A stretch of 64,000 bases of DNA, taken from contig CAVSBL010000002.1 of the NCBI GenBank assembly GCA_963726255.1, positions 32,001-96,000 of the forward strand, in the 5' to 3' direction. The notes beneath the pieces were generated by a model. It made no database searches, was not told where the DNA came from, and saw only the letters and a list, made by a program, of their open reading frames with translations. Made by a program: the position numbers and the translations under genes. The stretch comes from Candidatus Bathyarchaeota archaeon. Lineage in GTDB: Archaea; Thermoproteota; Bathyarchaeia; 40CM-2-53-6. Shown piece by piece: positions 54,916 through 64,000 of this stretch (the stretch's first letter is position 1; the number at the start of each line of letters is the position of its first letter).

Positions 54916-55224
54916 TGGGTCGACGTGTTGGCCGTAACCCACCTTCTGTTTTAGGCGACATTCATCTAGTCGGGATACCCGCGCCTCAGGCGGTTTTCAC
55001 GGGCGCCTATTATCCCTTTCACAGCGTGTGTAGGCATTTCACCCTTACCGCCAGCCTCCTCAACGCAAGCGCATCATAGTCGTCGGCTGGTGGAGGTTTT
55101 TTTCTGCGCCTTAACCCAACCTCTCGGCTGGCACTTCACAGTGCCACGCTTCCGCCATGTGGGTGGAGTTTCCTCAAGCCCAATACGCATAGGGCCCGGA
55201 GTCGCTCACCAACTCGCCAACCCA
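54916..55224 (-). ncRNA. rnpB: archaeal RNase P RNA
   Basis: On the minus strand, GAGGAAACTCCACCC (CR-I) and AAACAGAAGGTGGGTTA (CR-V) form P4; terminal P1 TGGGTTGGCG/CGTCGACCCA. Confidence 0.92.
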
Positions 55225-59338: not shown

Positions 59339-60887
<1,549 letters not shown>

Positions 60888-63120
60888 TAGTAAATTCGAA
60901 TGGACTGGAAGACAAATGAGTTGTGACTGCGAGCCAAGATGCGATAATGCAGCTTCCGAGCTAACATTCGGAAGCGAAGGGTATAGTGATCATTCACTCC
61001 GAAACGGATGATCATGATGAACACCGTGCATAGGCCTCAACGTTAGACGAGTGTGGGTTCCATAGTAAGTTCGGCATGATAAGCCACCTGAAGGATGGCT
61101 GGGCTTGGGCACTGAAGAAGGGCGTGGCAAGCTGCGATATGCTCCGGGTAGCCGCATGCAGGCTTCGATCCGGAGATACCCGAATAGGACTTCCAGCCGC
61201 GGGTGAAACCTGCGGCGCTCCGAAAAGGAGCGGGAACCTCCCGAACGGAAGCATCCAAGTAGGGAGAGGAACAGAAATCAATTGAGATTCCCCCAGTAGC
61301 GGCGAGCGAAAAGGGAACAGCTCAAACTGAACCTGCATGGGAAACTATGCGGGAATGTGGGGTTATAGGGCCCGACCGCGCCCTCGCTCGAGAAGTTGAA
61401 GTGGCCTGGAACGGCCCACCGTAGAGGGTGAAAGTCCCGTAAACATAACCGAGCAAGGTTTGGGTTGGTGTCCCTGAGTACTACGCCCCGGATTGGGCGT
61501 AGAAATTTGGGAGGAAGCAACTTCCAAAGCTAAACATGTCCCAAGACCGATAGCGCACTAGTACCGTGAGGGAAAGCTGAAAAGTACCCCGGAAGGGGGG
61601 CGAAAAGTGCCTGAAATCAGGTGGTAACAGTTGTGCACAGCCCGAAAGGGTAGATCCCCTCCGAAGGAAACCGCGGCAACGCGGCTGTACGCAAGAGGGG
61701 GGACCAGGGTTGTGCGTTCCGTTTTGTACCACGGGCCGGGGAGTTCATCTTCGTGGTGAGGCTAAGAGTGTGATGCTCGAAGCCGTAGGGAAACCAACAA
61801 GTTCGCAACGTCGCAAGACGCGAGGAACGAGATCTGAAAGGGTCTGAAATCACGGGGATGACACTAGAAACCGAGTGATCTAGCCTTGGGCAGGGCGAAG
61901 CCGGGCGAAAGCCCGGTGGAGGCCCGCATGGGTGATGACGTGCAAATCTCTCCGTTGACCTGGGGCTAGGAGTAAAAGGCCAATCTAACTCGGTGATAGC
62001 TAGTTCCCGCCGAAATATCTCTAAGGATAGTCTGGCCGGAGGTTGCCAGCGGGGTAGAGTACTGATTGAAAAACAAGGACTCGAAAGGGTCCACTTTTCG
62101 TTCAAACTCCGAATTCGCTGGCGCCGTAGAAGGCTGGAAACGGATGTGGGGGGTAAGCTCCCATGTCGCGAGGGGAACAACCCAGACTAGGGTTAAGGTC
62201 CCCAAATCCTGGCTAAGTGTAGAAATAGAAAGCGGTCCTCAACCACAGACAGCTGGAAGGTAGGCTTAGAAGCAGCCATCCTCCAAGCAGTGCGTAACAG
62301 CTGACCAGCCGAGGTTGGGGGCGCCGAAAACGAACGGGGCTAAGCCAGGTACCGTTACCCTAGAACACGATGCATAATCGTGTTGGTAGGCGGGCGTTGT
62401 GGCTGGGCGGAAGCTGGGTTTTGAGATCCAGTGGACCGGCCACAAGTGTAGATCCCGGTGGTAGTAACAGCCATAGAGGGGTGAGAATCCCCTCCGTCGA
62501 AGGGGCAAGGGTTCCCCGGCAATGCGTCGTCAGCCGGGGGTAAGTCGGCCCTAAGGCAACCCTTAACCGGATAAGCCGAAAGGGAAACCGGTTAAAATTC
62601 CGGTACCACGGAGGTACACGCGGCAACGCAAGTCCGCAATCTGACGCTTGGGGATAAGTTGAGTGGGGCCGTCGCCCCATTTAACCCGTCAAGGCCGGGA
62701 AGTACCATAATGGTGAGAACCGGCCGAAGCGGGAAATAGCCGCCCGTCTTAGGGTGGTTCAGCCGAGTCCTCGAGCCAATGAAAAGGAGCACGGAATGAA
62801 TCCTCCGTGACCGTACCTAAATCCGACACAGGTGCCCCTAGGTGAGAAGCCTTAGACGTATCGGGTGGAACTTAGGCGAGGGAACTCGGCAAATTAGCCC
62901 CGTAACTTCGGAAAAAGGGGTGCCTGACGTTTTGGCGCAAGCTGGAACGCCAGGTCGCAGTGACTCGGGAGAAGCGACTGTTTACTAAAAACATAGGGAA
63001 CCGCCAGCCCGAAAGGGTGTGAACGGTTCCTGAGTCCTGGCCAGTGGCGGTACCTGAAACTCGGGTTCAACCAAGCTAAGGGCCGCTAAACGCCGGGAGT
63101 AACTCTGACTCTCTTAAGGT

Positions 63121-63822
63121 AAACAGTGGTTTGCCTTAACCAAATCCGGCTATATGCTGGAAGGTCTGGCGAATGTCACACTACTCCAATCGAACCTCCA
63201 AGAAACATAAGCAACCTTGGACTACGGTTGAAGTGAAAAAGTGTTGACTGCAGATAATCAGCAGGAAAGGCTGGATCCGCGATGGGTCACGGGATTCGTC
63301 GACGGCGAAGGATGCTTCCATATCTCCATAAACAAGCAACCAAAGATGAGCATGGGATGGCAAGTATTACCAGAATTTCGAATAGTGCAACACAAACGTG
63401 ACGAAGCACTTCTCAAGGAACTTCAACGATTCTTCAAAGCTGGGAAAGTGGTTGTGAATCACGACCAGCGAAAAGAACTCAGAATACGAAAATTGAATGA
63501 ACTGACCAACGTGATTGCTCTCTTCGAAAAATATCCACTAAGGACCAAGAAAAGCGAAGATTTCGAAGTTTTCAGACAAGTCTTGCGCGCAATGAAGCAA
63601 CGCGAACATTTGACTCGTGAAGGACTCGACAGGATAGCTAACCTTTGCTGGAAGATGAATCGAAAAGTGAAGCCGCGGTATCTAGAATCCTCAGAGACTC
63701 TACGCCGGAAATCGCTGAAGTGCGATTAAGATATAGTCCGACCCCTGTAGCGATGCAGGGAGGTTTGCGATGTGCAAACCCGCCTACAATATTTCTGTTA
63801 GGTCACGGAAGTAACAGATGTG
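63121..63822 (+). mobile_element. group I intron (IB-like) at 23S position about 1931
   Basis: 5' exon ends in U with P1 TTAAGGT/GCCTTAA; P ATGCTGGAA, Q AATCAGCAGG (63256-63265), R TCAGAGACT (63691-63699), S AAGATATAGTCC (63728-63739); P3 CCGGC/GCCGG; terminal G at 63822; P10 TGGTT/AGCCA. Confidence 0.95.
63241..63729 (+). CDS. single-motif LAGLIDADG homing endonuclease
   Basis: WVTGFVDGEGCFHISI, FRIVQHKRD, KYPLRTKK...FEVF, HLTREGL. Confidence 0.93.
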   Translation: MLTADNQQERLDPRWVTGFVDGEGCFHISINKQPKMSMGWQVLPEFRIVQHKRDEALLKELQRFFKAGKVVVNHDQRKELRIRKLNELTNVIALFEKYPLRTKKSEDFEVFRQVLRAMKQREHLTREGLDRIANLCWKMNRKVKPRYLESSETLRRKSLKCD

Positions 63823-64000
63823 AGCCAAATGCCTTGTCGGGTAAGTTCCGACGTGCATGAATGGATCAACGACTTCTCCGCTGTCCCCGCCTAGGGCCCG
63901 GTGAACCCACAACCTGGACGAACAGTCCAAGGTCTTCCAGCGGGGCGAGAAGTCCCCGTGGAGTTTTACTGCAACCTGTCGCTGGGATGTGATTGCGGGT

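What the first reader, a model, noticed from the sequence alone, without database searches (positions are those of the whole stretch)
63121..63822. Group I intron with homing endonuclease in an archaeal 23S rRNA; the ORF runs through the ribozyme core
Seen in sequence: all P/Q/R/S elements, a U.G 5' splice site, P10 and the terminal G. The LAGLIDADG ORF sits mainly between Q and R, but it starts upstream of Q (ADNQQE is encoded by Q) and reads through R/P7, P3' and P8 (ESSETLRRKSLKCD), so these bases are dual-coding. Established knowledge: L1931 is an insertion site in Thermotoga and algal organelles, archaeal group I introns were recognised only recently, and ORF extension into the core ('core creep') is described. 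Inference: a probably still mobile element, possibly transferred between domains.
Basis: partly seen in the sequence, partly recalled or inferred. Interest (0 to 1): 0.72.

Follow-up and report, generated by a model that had tools for sequence, protein, structure and literature searches.

The report
Group I intron in archaeal 23S
A self-splicing group I intron that carries its own homing-endonuclease gene interrupts the only 23S rRNA gene of this archaeon; it is real and well formed, but this kind of element, including the gene's overlap with the ribozyme core, is already described.

Summary
Window 63121-63822 is a 702-nt insertion in the archaeal 23S rRNA gene, exactly after the base equivalent to E. 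coli U1931. Six congeneric genomes have the uninterrupted site. One congener (G017) has a 307-nt ORF-less version, which scores above Rfam's group I threshold (56.2 vs 50 bits). The window copy scores only 30.2 bits, because a 392-nt ORF-bearing loop splits P6a.

On 67 distinct relatives, 89.1% of cells pair in my P1-P10 model, against 33-41% for slid controls. 36 of 71 pairs show compensatory changes. No bulge-helix-bulge motif fits the junctions.

The 162-aa ORF (63241-63729) is a single-motif LAGLIDADG_1 endonuclease. Its first 14 codons and its last 18 codons plus the stop lie in helices P5a, P5, P4, P6, P6a, P7, P3 and P8. Third-codon positions there are far more conserved than in the middle of the gene: 0.93 and 0.72 against 0.44.

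None of this is new in kind. Nawrocki et al. 2018 list 15 archaeal introns at LSU/1931. Haugen et al. 2007 describe ORFs running through the core of a related bacterial rDNA intron (L1917). Current mobility and cross-domain transfer remain unshown.

The parts
61067..64000 (+). Host gene: archaeal 23S rRNA. It is cut by the window end; the full gene is L002 2068-5822.
   Evidence: Rfam RF02540 gives 1920.9 bits and 2712.2 bits for the full gene. It is the only 23S match in the 2.42-Mb assembly.
63121..63822 (+). Group I intron, 702 nt, inserted after the equivalent of E. coli U1931.
   Evidence: Six congeners have the site intronless, with matches abutting at query 522/1224 and the junction sequence read. 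E. coli numbering comes.
63114..63139 (+). P1: 5' exon UUAAGGU (63114-63120) pairs with the internal guide GCCUUAA (63133-63139). U63120.G63133 is at the splice site. Loop L1 is 63121-63132.
   Evidence: Coordinates. 89.1% of cells pair across 67 sequences; the splice-site pair is U.G in 56 and U-A in 4.
63127..63131 (+). P10 guide UGGUU, pairing with the first five bases of the 3' exon, AGCCA (63823-63827).
   Evidence: The pairing is seen in the sequence. Comparative support is weak at 47.3% of cells, because L1 aligns poorly.
63145..63150 (+). P3 5' strand UCCGGC. It pairs with 63704-63709 (GCCGGA).
   Evidence: 99.8% of cells pair, and 4 of 6 pairs show changes on both sides.
63155..63160 (+). 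P4 5' strand (element P), UGCUGG. It pairs with 63258-63263.
   Evidence: 99.8% of cells pair; the helix is nearly invariant.
63164..63255 (+). P5 (63164-63168 with 63251-63255) and its extension. This includes P5a (63175-63181 with 63241-63248), whose 3' strand holds the start codons GUG 63241 and UUG 63244.
   Evidence: P5 pairs in 89.0% of cells. P5a pairs in 98.9% of cells, and 7 of 7 pairs show changes on both sides.
63258..63266 (+). P4 3' strand (element Q, 63258-63263) and P6 5' strand (63264-63266). Both also encode N6-E9.
   Evidence: Every base of codons 7-9 (63259-63267) is invariant in 67 sequences. P6 pairs in 100% of cells.
63271..63281 (+). P6a 5' strand. It pairs with 63674-63685, with U63679 bulged. 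The terminal loop between the strands (63282-63673, 392 nt) holds the body of the ORF.
   Evidence: The outer 6 pairs are well kept and the inner 5 are weak outside close relatives; the helix is 76.0% paired overall. In congener G017 this loop is replaced by GAAA on a 7-bp stem.
63241..63729 (+). Homing-endonuclease ORF, 162 aa from GUG 63241 or 161 aa from UUG 63244. It has a single LAGLIDADG motif at residues 16-24. The stop UAA is at 63727-63729.
   Evidence: Pfam PF00961 at 94.2 bits against a cut-off of 23.1. 2900 homologues found, the best 120 at 66% identity or more. The codon aligned to 63244 is ATG in 51 of 67 relatives.
63674..63690 (+). P6a 3' strand (63674-63685) and P6 3' strand (63688-63690). 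They also encode P145-S150.
63694..63702 (+). P7 5' strand (element R). Pairs are G63694-C63739, then A63695 bulged, then 63696-63702 with 63732-63738. C63700.U63734 is a mismatch in this copy.
   Evidence: 97.6% of cells pair. The pair at 63700/63734 is A-U in 45, C-G in 13, G-C in 3, U-A in 3 and unpaired in 3 of 67.
63704..63709 (+). P3 3' strand GCCGGA. It also encodes part of R155-K157.
63710..63727 (+). P8 hairpin: AAUCGC, loop UGAAGU, GCGAUU. It also encodes K157-D162 and the first base of the stop codon.
   Evidence: 97.4% of cells pair, and 6 of 6 pairs show changes on both sides.
63728..63739 (+). J8/7 and P7 3' strand (element S), AAGAUAUAGUCC.
   Evidence: This is the best-matched stretch of the RF00028 alignment.
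63743..63802 (+). Peripheral 3' helices: P9 (63743-63760, GCGA loop), P9.1 (63762-63780) and P9.2 (63783-63802).
   Evidence: P9 pairs in 100% of cells with 6 of 7 pairs covarying. P9.1 pairs in 88.6% with 7 of 7 covarying. P9.2 pairs in 81.1%.
63822..63822 (+). Terminal G of the intron (omega-G).
   Evidence: All 48 loci for which one search found both flanks, with no G required by the pattern, end in G before AGC.

Best explanation
Window 63121-63822 is a group I intron of the L1931 rDNA family. Nawrocki et al. class this family as IB4. It has no P2, a long P5 extension, and P9, P9.1 and P9.2.

Inferred mechanism, from the established group I pathway:
1. The 23S precursor folds so that the internal guide pairs with the last seven exon bases (P1, with U.G at the cleavage site).
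2. An external guanosine bound next to the G63696-C63738 pair of P7 attacks the 5' splice site.
3. The terminal G63822 replaces it in the binding site.
4. P10 holds the 3' exon, and the exons are joined.

Because this is the only 23S gene in a 98.5%-complete assembly, splicing must work well enough for growth. This too is inferred.

The terminal loop of P6a carries a 162-aa single-motif LAGLIDADG_1 endonuclease gene. Its product is expected to act as a homodimer that cuts the uninterrupted sequence CTCTTAAGGTAGCCAAATGCC in intron-less alleles, so that repair copies the intron in (homing).

The ORF is longer than the loop. Its first 14 codons lie in P5a', P5', J5/4, P4', P6 and P6a. Its last 18 codons and the stop lie in P6a', P6', J6/7, P7, P3' and P8. 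In total 97 of about 310 ribozyme bases are read twice. The start codon is locked in the covarying helix P5a, so the folded ribozyme should hide it from ribosomes (inferred).
For: Structure:
- 71 modelled pairs in 11 helices were counted on 67 distinct introns. 89.1% of cells pair, against 32.9-41.2% when partners are slid by 1-3 columns.
- 36 pairs show changes on both sides. The covariation score is 0.344 against 0.133 for shuffles, with 0 of 500 shuffles as high.
- P5a and P9.2 add 11 pairs at 94.1% paired.

Family score:
- The ORF-less copy in congener G017 scores 56.2 bits on RF00028 (threshold 50, E 8.1e-14). Its ribozyme parts are 82% identical to the window's and 93% to L042's.
- Its minimum-free-energy fold gives P1, P3, P4, P5, P6, P8, P9, P9.1 and P9.2 unaided. 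The z-score is -4.16, and 0 of 100 shuffles fold as well.

Site and sporadic presence:
- The position is exactly L1931.
- Seven of 22 congeners have this 23S stretch assembled. Six are empty and one holds the ORF-less intron.

Endonuclease:
- PF00961 at 94.2 bits.
- In the PDB it matches both halves of I-OnuI-family enzymes (best E 7.3e-54) and a 170-aa single-domain entry, 5gkk (3.1e-43). The entry that its depositors call 'RRNA intron-encoded endonuclease' (3e54) is far weaker at 2.5e-10.
- G18, F19, D21, G22 and E23 are invariant in 27 homologues.
- The two-copy model supports a dimer: score 0.62, best control 0.00. That mark was reached by 20 of 30 proteins solved as pairs of one chain and by 1 of 23 solved as single chains. 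The runs agree in at least 96% of contacts and partner pLDDT is at least 79. The symmetric interface uses residues 11-23. Like complexes are solved, so this pass may reflect memory of them.

Dual reading:
- Mean pairwise identity at third-codon positions is 0.441 in codons 15-144. It is 0.719 in codons 3-14 (p 1e-3) and 0.927 in codons 147-156 (p 4e-7).
- A4, Q7-E9 and L148-T153 are invariant in the protein alignment.
- Residues 150-162 have pLDDT below 50 in the model. That fits a tail set by RNA needs rather than by protein fold.
Against: - The window copy itself is below Rfam's group I threshold, at 30.2 bits against 50. No GISSD subtype model could be run here.
- P7 carries a C63700.U63734 mismatch that 64 of 67 aligned sequences avoid.
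- The start codon is TTG or GTG where 51 of 67 relatives have ATG. The gene call on record is only 127 aa and lacks the motif (P0018).
- P10 (47.3% of cells) and the inner half of P6a are poorly supported by comparison.
- No splicing, cleavage or homing was observed.
- RNA-library contigs do show the exons joined at 63120/63823: depth 1313 in X2 and 1664 in X3, and none listed in DNA runs X1 and X5. Intron-less relatives would give the same joint, so this is not evidence of splicing.
Confidence: 0.93

Rival explanations
1. It is an archaeal bulge-helix-bulge (BHB) intron. The tRNA-splicing endonuclease would cut it out, as for the classical LAGLIDADG-bearing rRNA introns of Thermoproteales.
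For: The host is archaeal. BHB introns with homing-endonuclease genes are the usual kind in archaeal rRNA (Nawrocki et al. 2018, introduction read).
Against: - The best BHB placement at the two junctions gives 2 of 4 central pairs, 1 pair in helix A and 0 in helix B.
- Among relatives, 1 of 72 loci passes a lenient test, against 2.5% of random junction pairs.
- The group I core is supported by covariation and by RF00028 on the ORF-less copy.
- The endonuclease is far closer to I-OnuI-type LAGLIDADG_1 enzymes (E 7e-54) than to the PDB entry that its depositors name 'RRNA intron-encoded endonuclease' (E 2.5e-10).
Confidence: 0.01
2. Assembly chimera: the intron belongs to another organism of the community and was joined to this genome's 23S exons during assembly.
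For: In DNA run X1 the only contig across the intron (62875-63852) has 27 substitutions. The 26 that are listed all lie in the 5' exon (62909-63075) and none in the intron. Those exon letters resemble other families of the order: 13-14 of 26 match, against 1 of 26 in the nearest congeners. So the intron and this exon variant are not always seen together.
Against: - The rRNA operon lies about 93 kb inside a 2.36-Mb contig.
- The window's exons are 98% identical to congeners G004 and G018.
- The nearest intron (L040: 88% over the whole intron, 93% over the ribozyme) sits in exons 96.7% identical to the window's.
- Over 53 loci, exon identity and intron identity rise together (Spearman 0.64 over 1378 pairs, which are not independent). 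No pair has introns at least 97% alike in exons less than 97% alike.
- The X1 contig may itself be a de Bruijn chimera across the 45 conserved bases 63076-63120.
Confidence: 0.05
3. It is a group I intron in decline. The ribozyme still splices, but the endonuclease is no longer made or no longer active, so the element is now inherited only vertically and is on the way to the ORF-less state seen in G017.
For: - The start is TTG/GTG where 51 of 67 relatives have ATG.
- The start codon is buried in P5a.
- P7 has a mismatch.
- G017's ORF-less intron groups with the ORF-bearing L042 at 100/99 support. It sits inside a 9-row clade (97/97) whose other 8 rows, the window among them, bear the ORF. ORF loss therefore does occur in this lineage.
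- Intron and exon divergence track each other.
Against: - The ORF is full length with no stop or frameshift, and the motif residues are intact.
- The middle of the ORF shows a coding pattern: position 2 is more conserved than position 1, which is more conserved than position 3 (0.815, 0.660, 0.441).
- Nine other relatives also have TTG at this codon, so TTG may be a working start.
- Six congeners keep a perfect empty target.
Confidence: 0.35
4. The protein is kept mainly as a maturase that helps its own intron fold, and DNA cleavage is secondary or lost.
For: Hausner et al. 2014 (PMC3984707, passage read) report that the LAGLIDADG protein of the Thermotoga neapolitana 23S intron has maturase-like activity. 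That intron is 700 nt with a 162-aa protein at L1931 (Haugen et al. 2007, Table 1), the same sizes as here. A weakened P7 could raise the need for a helper.
Against: Nothing in these calls bears on RNA binding. The catalytic motif residues are conserved, which a pure maturase would not need.
Confidence: 0.15

Closest known systems
Archaeal IB4 group I introns at LSU/1931 (Nawrocki, Jones and Eddy 2018, PMC6125680, Table 1)
   Same: Same host gene and same insertion position. 15 of their 39 archaeal introns are IB4 at LSU/1931. Two are labelled Thaumarchaeota, of 281 nt and 684 nt. 21 of the 39 carry LAGLIDADG ORFs. They describe a homing-endonuclease insertion in P6 for one intron, IA3.1.
   Different: I could not run their IB4 model or fetch their records, so identity with a listed intron is untested, and none of their listed lengths is 702 nt. 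In the sections I read they do not discuss ORF overlap with the core. Their supplementary table could not be seen.
Bacterial L1931 and L1917 rDNA introns with single-motif LAGLIDADG genes: Thermotoga, Synechococcus, Simkania (Haugen et al. 2007, PMC1995217; Nesbo and Doolittle 2003, known only from the reference list and recall)
   Same: Same site. Nearly the same sizes: Thermotoga 698-700 nt with a 162-aa protein, against 702 nt and 162 aa here. No P2 and a complex P5. They describe ORFs that extend from a peripheral loop through P7, P3 and P8, and interpret this as double constraint. The nearest ESM Atlas cluster (score 0.95) has Thermotogota as its commonest labelled phylum; this is a lead only.
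   Different: The host domain differs. No sequence of those introns was available here, so homology of the ribozyme and the direction or date of any transfer are untested. Haugen et al. call the fold IC1-like, while Nawrocki et al. file the archaeal ones under IB4.
'Core creep' model of ORF extension into intron cores (Edgell, Chalamcharla and Belfort 2011, PMC3073962)
   Same: The model predicts that the length of the 3' extension varies among relatives. Here the stop falls at 14 different aligned positions, from window-equivalent 63683 to 63812. 65 of 67 lie at or beyond P3'.
   Different: The 5' end does not vary in this way. The start is fixed at one aligned codon in most relatives (ATG in 51 of 67), inside a covarying helix.
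I-OnuI family and single-domain LAGLIDADG_1 enzymes with solved structures (PDB 36of aHE15, 5esp I-PanMI, 4yit I-AabMI, 5gkk)
   Same: Same Pfam family. Sequence matches have E-values of 7e-54 to 3e-43 over residues 8-153.
   Different: Most of these are two-domain monomers of about 300 aa. The protein here is one domain of 162 aa and is modelled as a symmetric dimer. Its target is rDNA. I found no paper on 5gkk.
BHB rRNA introns of Crenarchaeota with LAGLIDADG enzymes
   Same: Archaeal rRNA host and a LAGLIDADG enzyme.
   Different: The splicing signal differs: the BHB motif was tested and not met. The enzyme is only distantly related (3e54 at E 2.5e-10).

Membership tests
Group I intron (Rfam RF00028) | The covariance-model score of the window copy reaches the curated threshold of 50 bits. 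| tested here: not met
   30.2 bits, E 1.1e-5, for 63552-63760 only. It is the only RF00028 match in the genome. The 392-nt loop in P6a splits the model alignment.
Group I intron (Rfam RF00028) | The covariance-model score of a homologous copy without the ORF reaches the threshold. | tested here: met
   L011:2012-2264 (congener G017) scores 56.2 bits, E 8.1e-14, over model positions 1-253. It is homologous to the window's ribozyme (82% identity; same clade).
Group I intron | Core helices P3-P8, including the P3/P7 pseudoknot, are kept by compensatory change. | tested here: met
   Percent of cells paired: P3 99.8, P4 99.8, P5 89.0, P6 100, P7 97.6, P8 97.4. 36 of 71 pairs show changes on both sides. 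Slid controls give 33-41%.
Group I intron | U at the end of the 5' exon pairs with G of an internal guide (P1). G is the last intron base. | tested here: met
   U63120.G63133. The pair is U.G in 56 and U-A in 4 of 67. All 48 loci end in G.
Group I intron | Guanosine-dependent self-splicing. | not testable with these tools
   This needs an in-vitro transcript. RNA-run contigs cannot tell splicing from intron-less relatives.
Group I subgroup IB4 (GISSD model, as used by Nawrocki et al.) | Significant hit to the IB4 covariance model. No P2. | tested here: inconclusive
   The model was not available. Absence of P2 is seen: only 5 bases (63140-63144) lie between P1 and P3. Haugen et al. call the same bacterial family IC1-like.
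L1931 insertion site | The intron follows the base homologous to E. coli 23S U1931. | tested here: met
   In K-12 rrlH (gene start at locus position 60) TAAGGTAGCGAAATTCC starts at locus 1985, which is gene position 1926. The T of AAGGT is therefore 1931.
LAGLIDADG homing endonuclease (Pfam PF00961) | Profile score above the curated cut-off, with the motif's conserved acidic residue present. | tested here: met
   94.2 bits against 23.1, residues 17-114. G18, F19, D21, G22 and E23 are invariant in 27 sequences. That E23 is the catalytic position is recalled from I-CreI-type enzymes, not tested.
LAGLIDADG homing endonuclease, single-motif class | Forms a homodimer through the motif helix. | tested here: met
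   Model only. Score 0.62 with best control 0.00. The mark was reached by 20 of 30 proteins solved as pairs of one chain and 1 of 23 solved as single chains. Contacts agree in at least 96% and pLDDT is at least 79. The interface is residues 11-23, 50-60 and 101-103. The pass may come from likeness to solved dimers.
LAGLIDADG homing endonuclease | Cleaves the intron-less allele. | not testable with these tools
   An empty target identical to the joined exons exists in 6 congeners.
Archaeal BHB intron | Two 3-nt bulges that hold the splice sites, separated by a 4-bp helix and flanked by helices. | tested here: not met
   Best placement gives 2 of 4 central pairs and flanking helices of 1 and 0 pairs.

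The most novel reading that the evidence does not exclude
The element may be spreading now between distinct archaeal lineages in sediment. In one DNA run the same intron (at most 1 difference in 702 nt) is joined to a 23S exon that differs from the window's at 26-27 of 246 flanking positions and resembles other families of the order. Within the host genus, all three stages of the homing cycle (as recalled from Goddard and Burt) are present side by side: six empty sites, one intron with the ORF, and one intron that lost the ORF. That would make an archaeal homing cycle, and cross-family homing at a universally conserved rRNA site, directly testable in nature.
Probability: 0.15. Interest if true: 0.5.

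Novelty: new member of a known kind. Interest (0 to 1): 0.27.

Why it matters
It adds one well-documented case to a published class: archaeal group I introns at LSU/1931 that carry LAGLIDADG genes.

- Annotation. The intron is missed by Rfam's gathering threshold, and the endonuclease is called 35 residues short. Pipelines will therefore mis-annotate both.
- Evolution. The comparative set assembled here is a clean natural data set for three questions: how RNA and protein constraints share the same bases, whether 'core creep' holds, and whether the invasion-decay-loss cycle runs in archaea. The set comprises 67 distinct introns, one ORF-less derivative and six empty sites in one genus.

None of this changes what is known about how such elements work.

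Tried and rejected
- Rfam at gathering threshold found no group I hit in the window. The hit appears only with the E-value threshold.
- An unconstrained co-fold of the two ribozyme halves of the window did not give the group I topology. I therefore built the model by hand from the ORF-less fold and tested it by covariation.
- A first MAFFT alignment of three introns misplaced the ORF-less copy. I left that copy out of alignment A2 and handled it separately.
- Host domain of related loci: two multi-source Rfam calls failed internally. Only L084 was then tested, and it is archaeal at 686.2 bits. For the other loci I rely on the flank motif.
- Cross-domain origin:
  - The genome-contig scan with the protein gave 1 locus, a MAG whose title says Nitrososphaerota.
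  - Cluster look-up of six NCBI-sourced homologues returned no names or accessions.
  - Nesbo and Doolittle 2003 is not held.
  - The Atlas row with Thermotogota is a lead only.
- No paper was found for PDB 5gkk with the terms '5GKK' and 'LAGLIDADG'.
- Host lineage: PF12942 (archaeal AmoA) was not found in the genome. The control genomes were silent too, so this says little.
- Splicing in vivo:
  - The RNA-run contigs X2 and X3 hold an intron-bearing variant at depth 6 and 25, against exon depths near 1e5.
  - They also hold exon-exon joints.
  - Summed depths and intron-less relatives make both uninformative.
  - These contigs have only 29 bases on each exon side, below the tool's 31-base rule for bridging.
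- Earlier findings of this scan: none for this genome.
Full report
**Observation**

The window's last 2.9 kb is an archaeal 23S rRNA gene. It matches RF02540 at 1920.9 bits and is cut by the window end. In the genome the gene is complete at L002 2068-5822, scoring 2712.2 bits and spanning 3755 nt against a 2987-position model.

The Rfam alignment leaves 703 bases unaligned between ...CUCUUA and G.GAGCCAA. I fixed the edges with relatives. A BLAST of window 62600-64000 against 40 related genomes found this stretch of 23S in 7 of 22 congeners; an eighth row, G020, is a 35-base weak hit. In G004, G005, G011, G013, G014 and G018 the match to query 1-522 directly abuts the match to 1224-1401. The loci on the + strand read CTCTTAAGGT|AGCCAAATGCC. 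Either 63121-63822 or the same span shifted by one base fits the DNA. Only 63121-63822 leaves U before the 5' splice site and G as the last intron base.

In E. coli K-12 rrlH the motif TAAGGTAGCGAAATTCC begins at gene position 1926, so the insertion follows U1931. A first attempt on a variant rrl copy gave 1930 because that copy is 10 nt short.

**What it is**

RF00028 matches the window copy at only 30.2 bits (threshold 50), E 1.1e-5, over 63552-63760. It is the only such match in the genome.

The reason is a large loop. Congener G017 has the same intron without it. BLAST aligns query 1-676 and 1082-1401 only nine bases apart, and the G017 intron is 307 nt (L011:2022-2328). That copy scores 56.2 bits, E 8.1e-14, over the whole model. 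It folds unaided into P1, P3, P4, an extended P5, P6/P6a capped by GAAA, P8, P9, P9.1 and P9.2. The energy is -101.5 kcal/mol, the z-score -4.16, and 0 of 100 shuffles fold as well. P7 appears in the centroid structure.

I transferred this model to the window by hand (coordinates; see the parts list). An unconstrained co-fold of the window halves did not find it.

**Comparative test**

The endonuclease has 2900 homologues at E 0.001 or better among 2933 candidates. The best 120 are all at least 66% identical and mostly 158-164 aa. A scan of metagenome contigs with a 27-sequence protein alignment (A1) found 452 encoding stretches among 596 pattern matches, and the best 80 were kept.

With two more loci from genomes (L003, L039), 74 of 82 loci had recognisable boundaries on both sides, all of the form ...CTTAAGGT | intron ...G | AGC. 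My pattern required the G. In one search, which did not require it, all 48 loci with both flanks end in G. After I dropped 8 identical rows and 1 with a short flank, 67 distinct sequences including the window were aligned (A2, 1010 columns).

- On A2, 71 pairs in 11 helices give 89.1% paired cells, against 32.9-41.2% with partners slid by 1-3 columns.
- 36 pairs show changes on both sides.
- The covariation score is 0.344 against 0.133 for shuffles, with 0 of 500 shuffles as high.
- P3 (99.8% paired, 4 of 6 pairs covarying), P7 (97.6%), P8 (97.4%, 6 of 6), P9 (100%, 6 of 7) and P9.1 (88.6%, 7 of 7) are the clearest.
- P4 and P6 are almost invariant, so they say nothing either way.
- P10 (47.3%) and the inner five pairs of P6a are weak. 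L1 aligns poorly, and the inner P6a columns are aligned by codons.
- P5a and P9.2, tested separately, give 94.1% paired cells. All 7 P5a pairs covary.

The relatedness of the sequences inflates shuffle tests. The slid controls and the number of pair types are the safer measures.

**The rival for an archaeal host**

The obvious rival is a bulge-helix-bulge intron, and it does not fit. The best placement at the junctions gives 2 of 4 central pairs and flanking helices of 1 and 0 pairs. One of 72 relatives passes a lenient test, against 2.5% of random junction pairs.

**The ORF**

The ORF spans 63241-63729 and encodes 162 aa from GTG. It matches PF00961 at 94.2 bits (cut-off 23.1) over residues 17-114. 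In the PDB it matches each half of two-domain I-OnuI-type enzymes (36of 7.3e-54, 5esp 9.6e-52, 4yit 1.9e-51) and a 170-aa single-domain entry (5gkk, 3.1e-43). The entry deposited as 'RRNA intron-encoded endonuclease' (3e54) is far weaker at 2.5e-10.

The monomer model has mean pLDDT 72.9, with values below 50 for residues 1-22 and 150-162. A two-copy model supports a symmetric dimer through residues 11-23, 50-60 and 101-103:

- The score is 0.62 and the best control 0.00.
- The mark was reached by 20 of 30 proteins solved as pairs of one chain and by 1 of 23 solved as single chains.
- The runs agree in at least 96% of contacts, and partner pLDDT is at least 79.

Similar dimers are solved, so this pass shows likeness, not binding.

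**Overlap with the ribozyme**

P6a closes at 63281/63674, so the loop that holds the ORF body is 63282-63673 (392 nt). The ORF is 97 bases longer than that.

- Codons 1-14 (63241-63281) lie in P5a', P5', J5/4, P4', P6 and P6a.
- Codons 145-162 and the stop (63674-63729) lie in P6a', P6', J6/7, P7, P3' and P8.
- The stop's first base is the last base of P8.

The signature of double constraint is clear. Mean pairwise identity at third-codon positions is 0.441 in codons 15-144. It is 0.719 in codons 3-14 (one-sided Mann-Whitney p 1e-3) and 0.927 in codons 147-156 (p 4e-7). Only 3 of 130 middle third positions are at least 95% identical, against 3 of 12 and 7 of 19 in the overlaps. In the protein alignment A4, Q7, Q8, E9 and L148-T153 are invariant, although the model gives residues 150-162 no confident structure.

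The start is fixed. The codon aligned to window 63244 is ATG in 51 of 67 sequences, TTG in 9 (the window among them) and GTG in 1. It sits in the 3' strand of the covarying helix P5a. The stop is not fixed. It falls at 14 aligned positions from window-equivalent 63683 to 63812. 65 of 67 lie at or beyond P3', and the window's TAA is shared by 13. A variable 3' extension is what Edgell et al. predict for 'core creep' (PMC3073962, passages read).

**Distribution and history**

- The genome has one 23S gene and one copy of the endonuclease.
- In the genus, 6 sites are empty, 1 holds the ORF-less intron, and the window holds the full element.
- Elsewhere in the order, 5 genomes are empty at this site (G025, G030, G034, G036, G039). 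G038 has 29 unaligned bases that I did not examine. G031, G033 and G035 have an insert starting eight bases upstream (L1923) with a roughly 30%-identical LAGLIDADG ORF.
- In an even sample of the phylum, 1 of 400 other genomes has a close endonuclease (G300, 71% identity). Many assemblies lack rRNA genes, so this is 'not found', not 'absent'.

G017's ORF-less ribozyme is 92.9% identical to that of L042, which has the ORF, and 81.8% identical to the window's. In a maximum-likelihood tree of 25 ribozymes it pairs with L042 at 100/99 support. This pair sits inside a 9-row clade (97/97) whose other 8 rows, the window among them, bear the ORF (24 of the 67 rows of A2 were used, the close ones, plus L011). 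ORF loss is therefore the simpler reading.

Over 53 loci with 400 + 170 nt of flank, exon and intron identity rise together. Spearman's coefficient is 0.64 over 1378 pairs, which are not independent. No pair has introns at least 97% alike in exons less than 97% alike. That speaks for long residence with mostly vertical or near-kin spread.

**Reads**

Twenty runs hold part of the stretch, and four were laid. All are contigs, so they show presence only.

DNA run X1 has one contig over 62875-63852. Of its 27 substitutions, 26 are listed, and all of these lie in the exon 62909-63075. These letters resemble other families of the order (13-14 of 26 shared) rather than congeners (1 of 26). This is either very recent horizontal homing or a contig chimera across the 45 conserved bases before the splice site. 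I could not tell which.

RNA runs X2 and X3 hold an intron-bearing variant with 11 differences, at depth 6 and 25. It has G at 63700, which turns the window's C.U mismatch in P7 into G.U. Exon-exon joints at 63120/63823 appear in the RNA runs and not in the listed DNA joints, but intron-less relatives would give the same joints.

**Comparison with what is known**

Nawrocki et al. 2018 list 39 archaeal group I introns. Fifteen are IB4 at LSU/1931, including two labelled Thaumarchaeota. 21 carry LAGLIDADG ORFs (PMC6125680; text and Table 1 read, supplements not seen).

Haugen et al. 2007 tabulate bacterial L1931 introns. Thermotoga has 698-700 nt with a 162-aa enzyme, and Synechococcus has 675 nt with 162 aa. 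[quoted passage not shown] They read this as double selection and add that similar features are known elsewhere (PMC1995217; passages and Table 1 read). Hausner et al. 2014 draw the same arrangement in their Figure 2 legend and report maturase-like activity for the Thermotoga protein (PMC3984707; passages read).

The element here is thus a further member of a described family, in a described host domain, with a described peculiarity.

**Verdict**

The finding is real and correctly read, but ordinary for the field. The points worth keeping are:

- the annotation traps (a sub-threshold CM score and a truncated gene call, P0018 of 127 aa);
- the P7 mismatch;
- the three homing-cycle states within one genus;
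- the unexplained X1 contig.

The host lineage was not settled. The nearest named relative of the endonuclease sits in a MAG whose title says Nitrososphaerota. No archaeal AmoA was found, though the control genomes were silent too.

Noticed in passing
G031:C4 (L005/L023), G033:C7 (L006/L019), G035:C12 (L007/L025): Three genomes of other families in the same order have a 23S insert that begins eight bases upstream of this site (the equivalent of L1923). It carries a LAGLIDADG ORF only 29-32% identical to the one here.
   Followed up: partly
G035:C12, between locus matches 311-700 and 1402-1526 (window-equivalent 62989/62990): A further insert of about 700 nt in the same 23S gene, at a third position. 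Its kind is not determined.
   Followed up: no
L043, L051, L066 (5' flank of the L1931 intron): The flank reads ...GTTG|CTTAAGGT instead of CTCTCTTAAGGT. A second intron therefore ends at L1923, leaving an 8-nt exon between two introns.
   Followed up: no
window 63346-63729 (protein P0018): The gene call on record for this ORF is 127 aa. It starts at Met36 and lacks the LAGLIDADG helix. Relatives show that the true start is the codon at 63244 (ATG in 51 of 67).
   Followed up: yes
window 63700 and 63734: P7 has a C.U mismatch here. The closest relatives have C-G, and a 98.5%-identical variant in RNA-run contigs has G.U. This copy looks like the intermediate of a compensatory double change.
   Followed up: partly
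window 62909-63075, run X1: A DNA contig joins this intron (none of the 26 listed differences falls inside it) to an exon variant with 26 listed substitutions, which resembles other families of the order. It is either recent horizontal homing or a contig chimera.
   Followed up: partly
L084, L089, L099, L104, L105, L107, L111, L113, L114, L118, L119 (alignment A2 columns 40-150): The most distant relatives (54-58% endonuclease identity) have 70-110 extra bases between P1 and P3, probably a P2 domain that the window's intron lacks. L084's flanks are archaeal 23S.
   Followed up: no
window 54923-55217 (-), 59340-60887 (+): Archaeal RNase P RNA (173.6 bits) lies about 4 kb upstream of the 16S gene. 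The 16S gene has no large insert.
   Followed up: no
L056 and L065: Two metagenome loci have exons 98.8% identical but introns only 83% identical. This is the one clear outlier from the exon-intron co-divergence.
   Followed up: no
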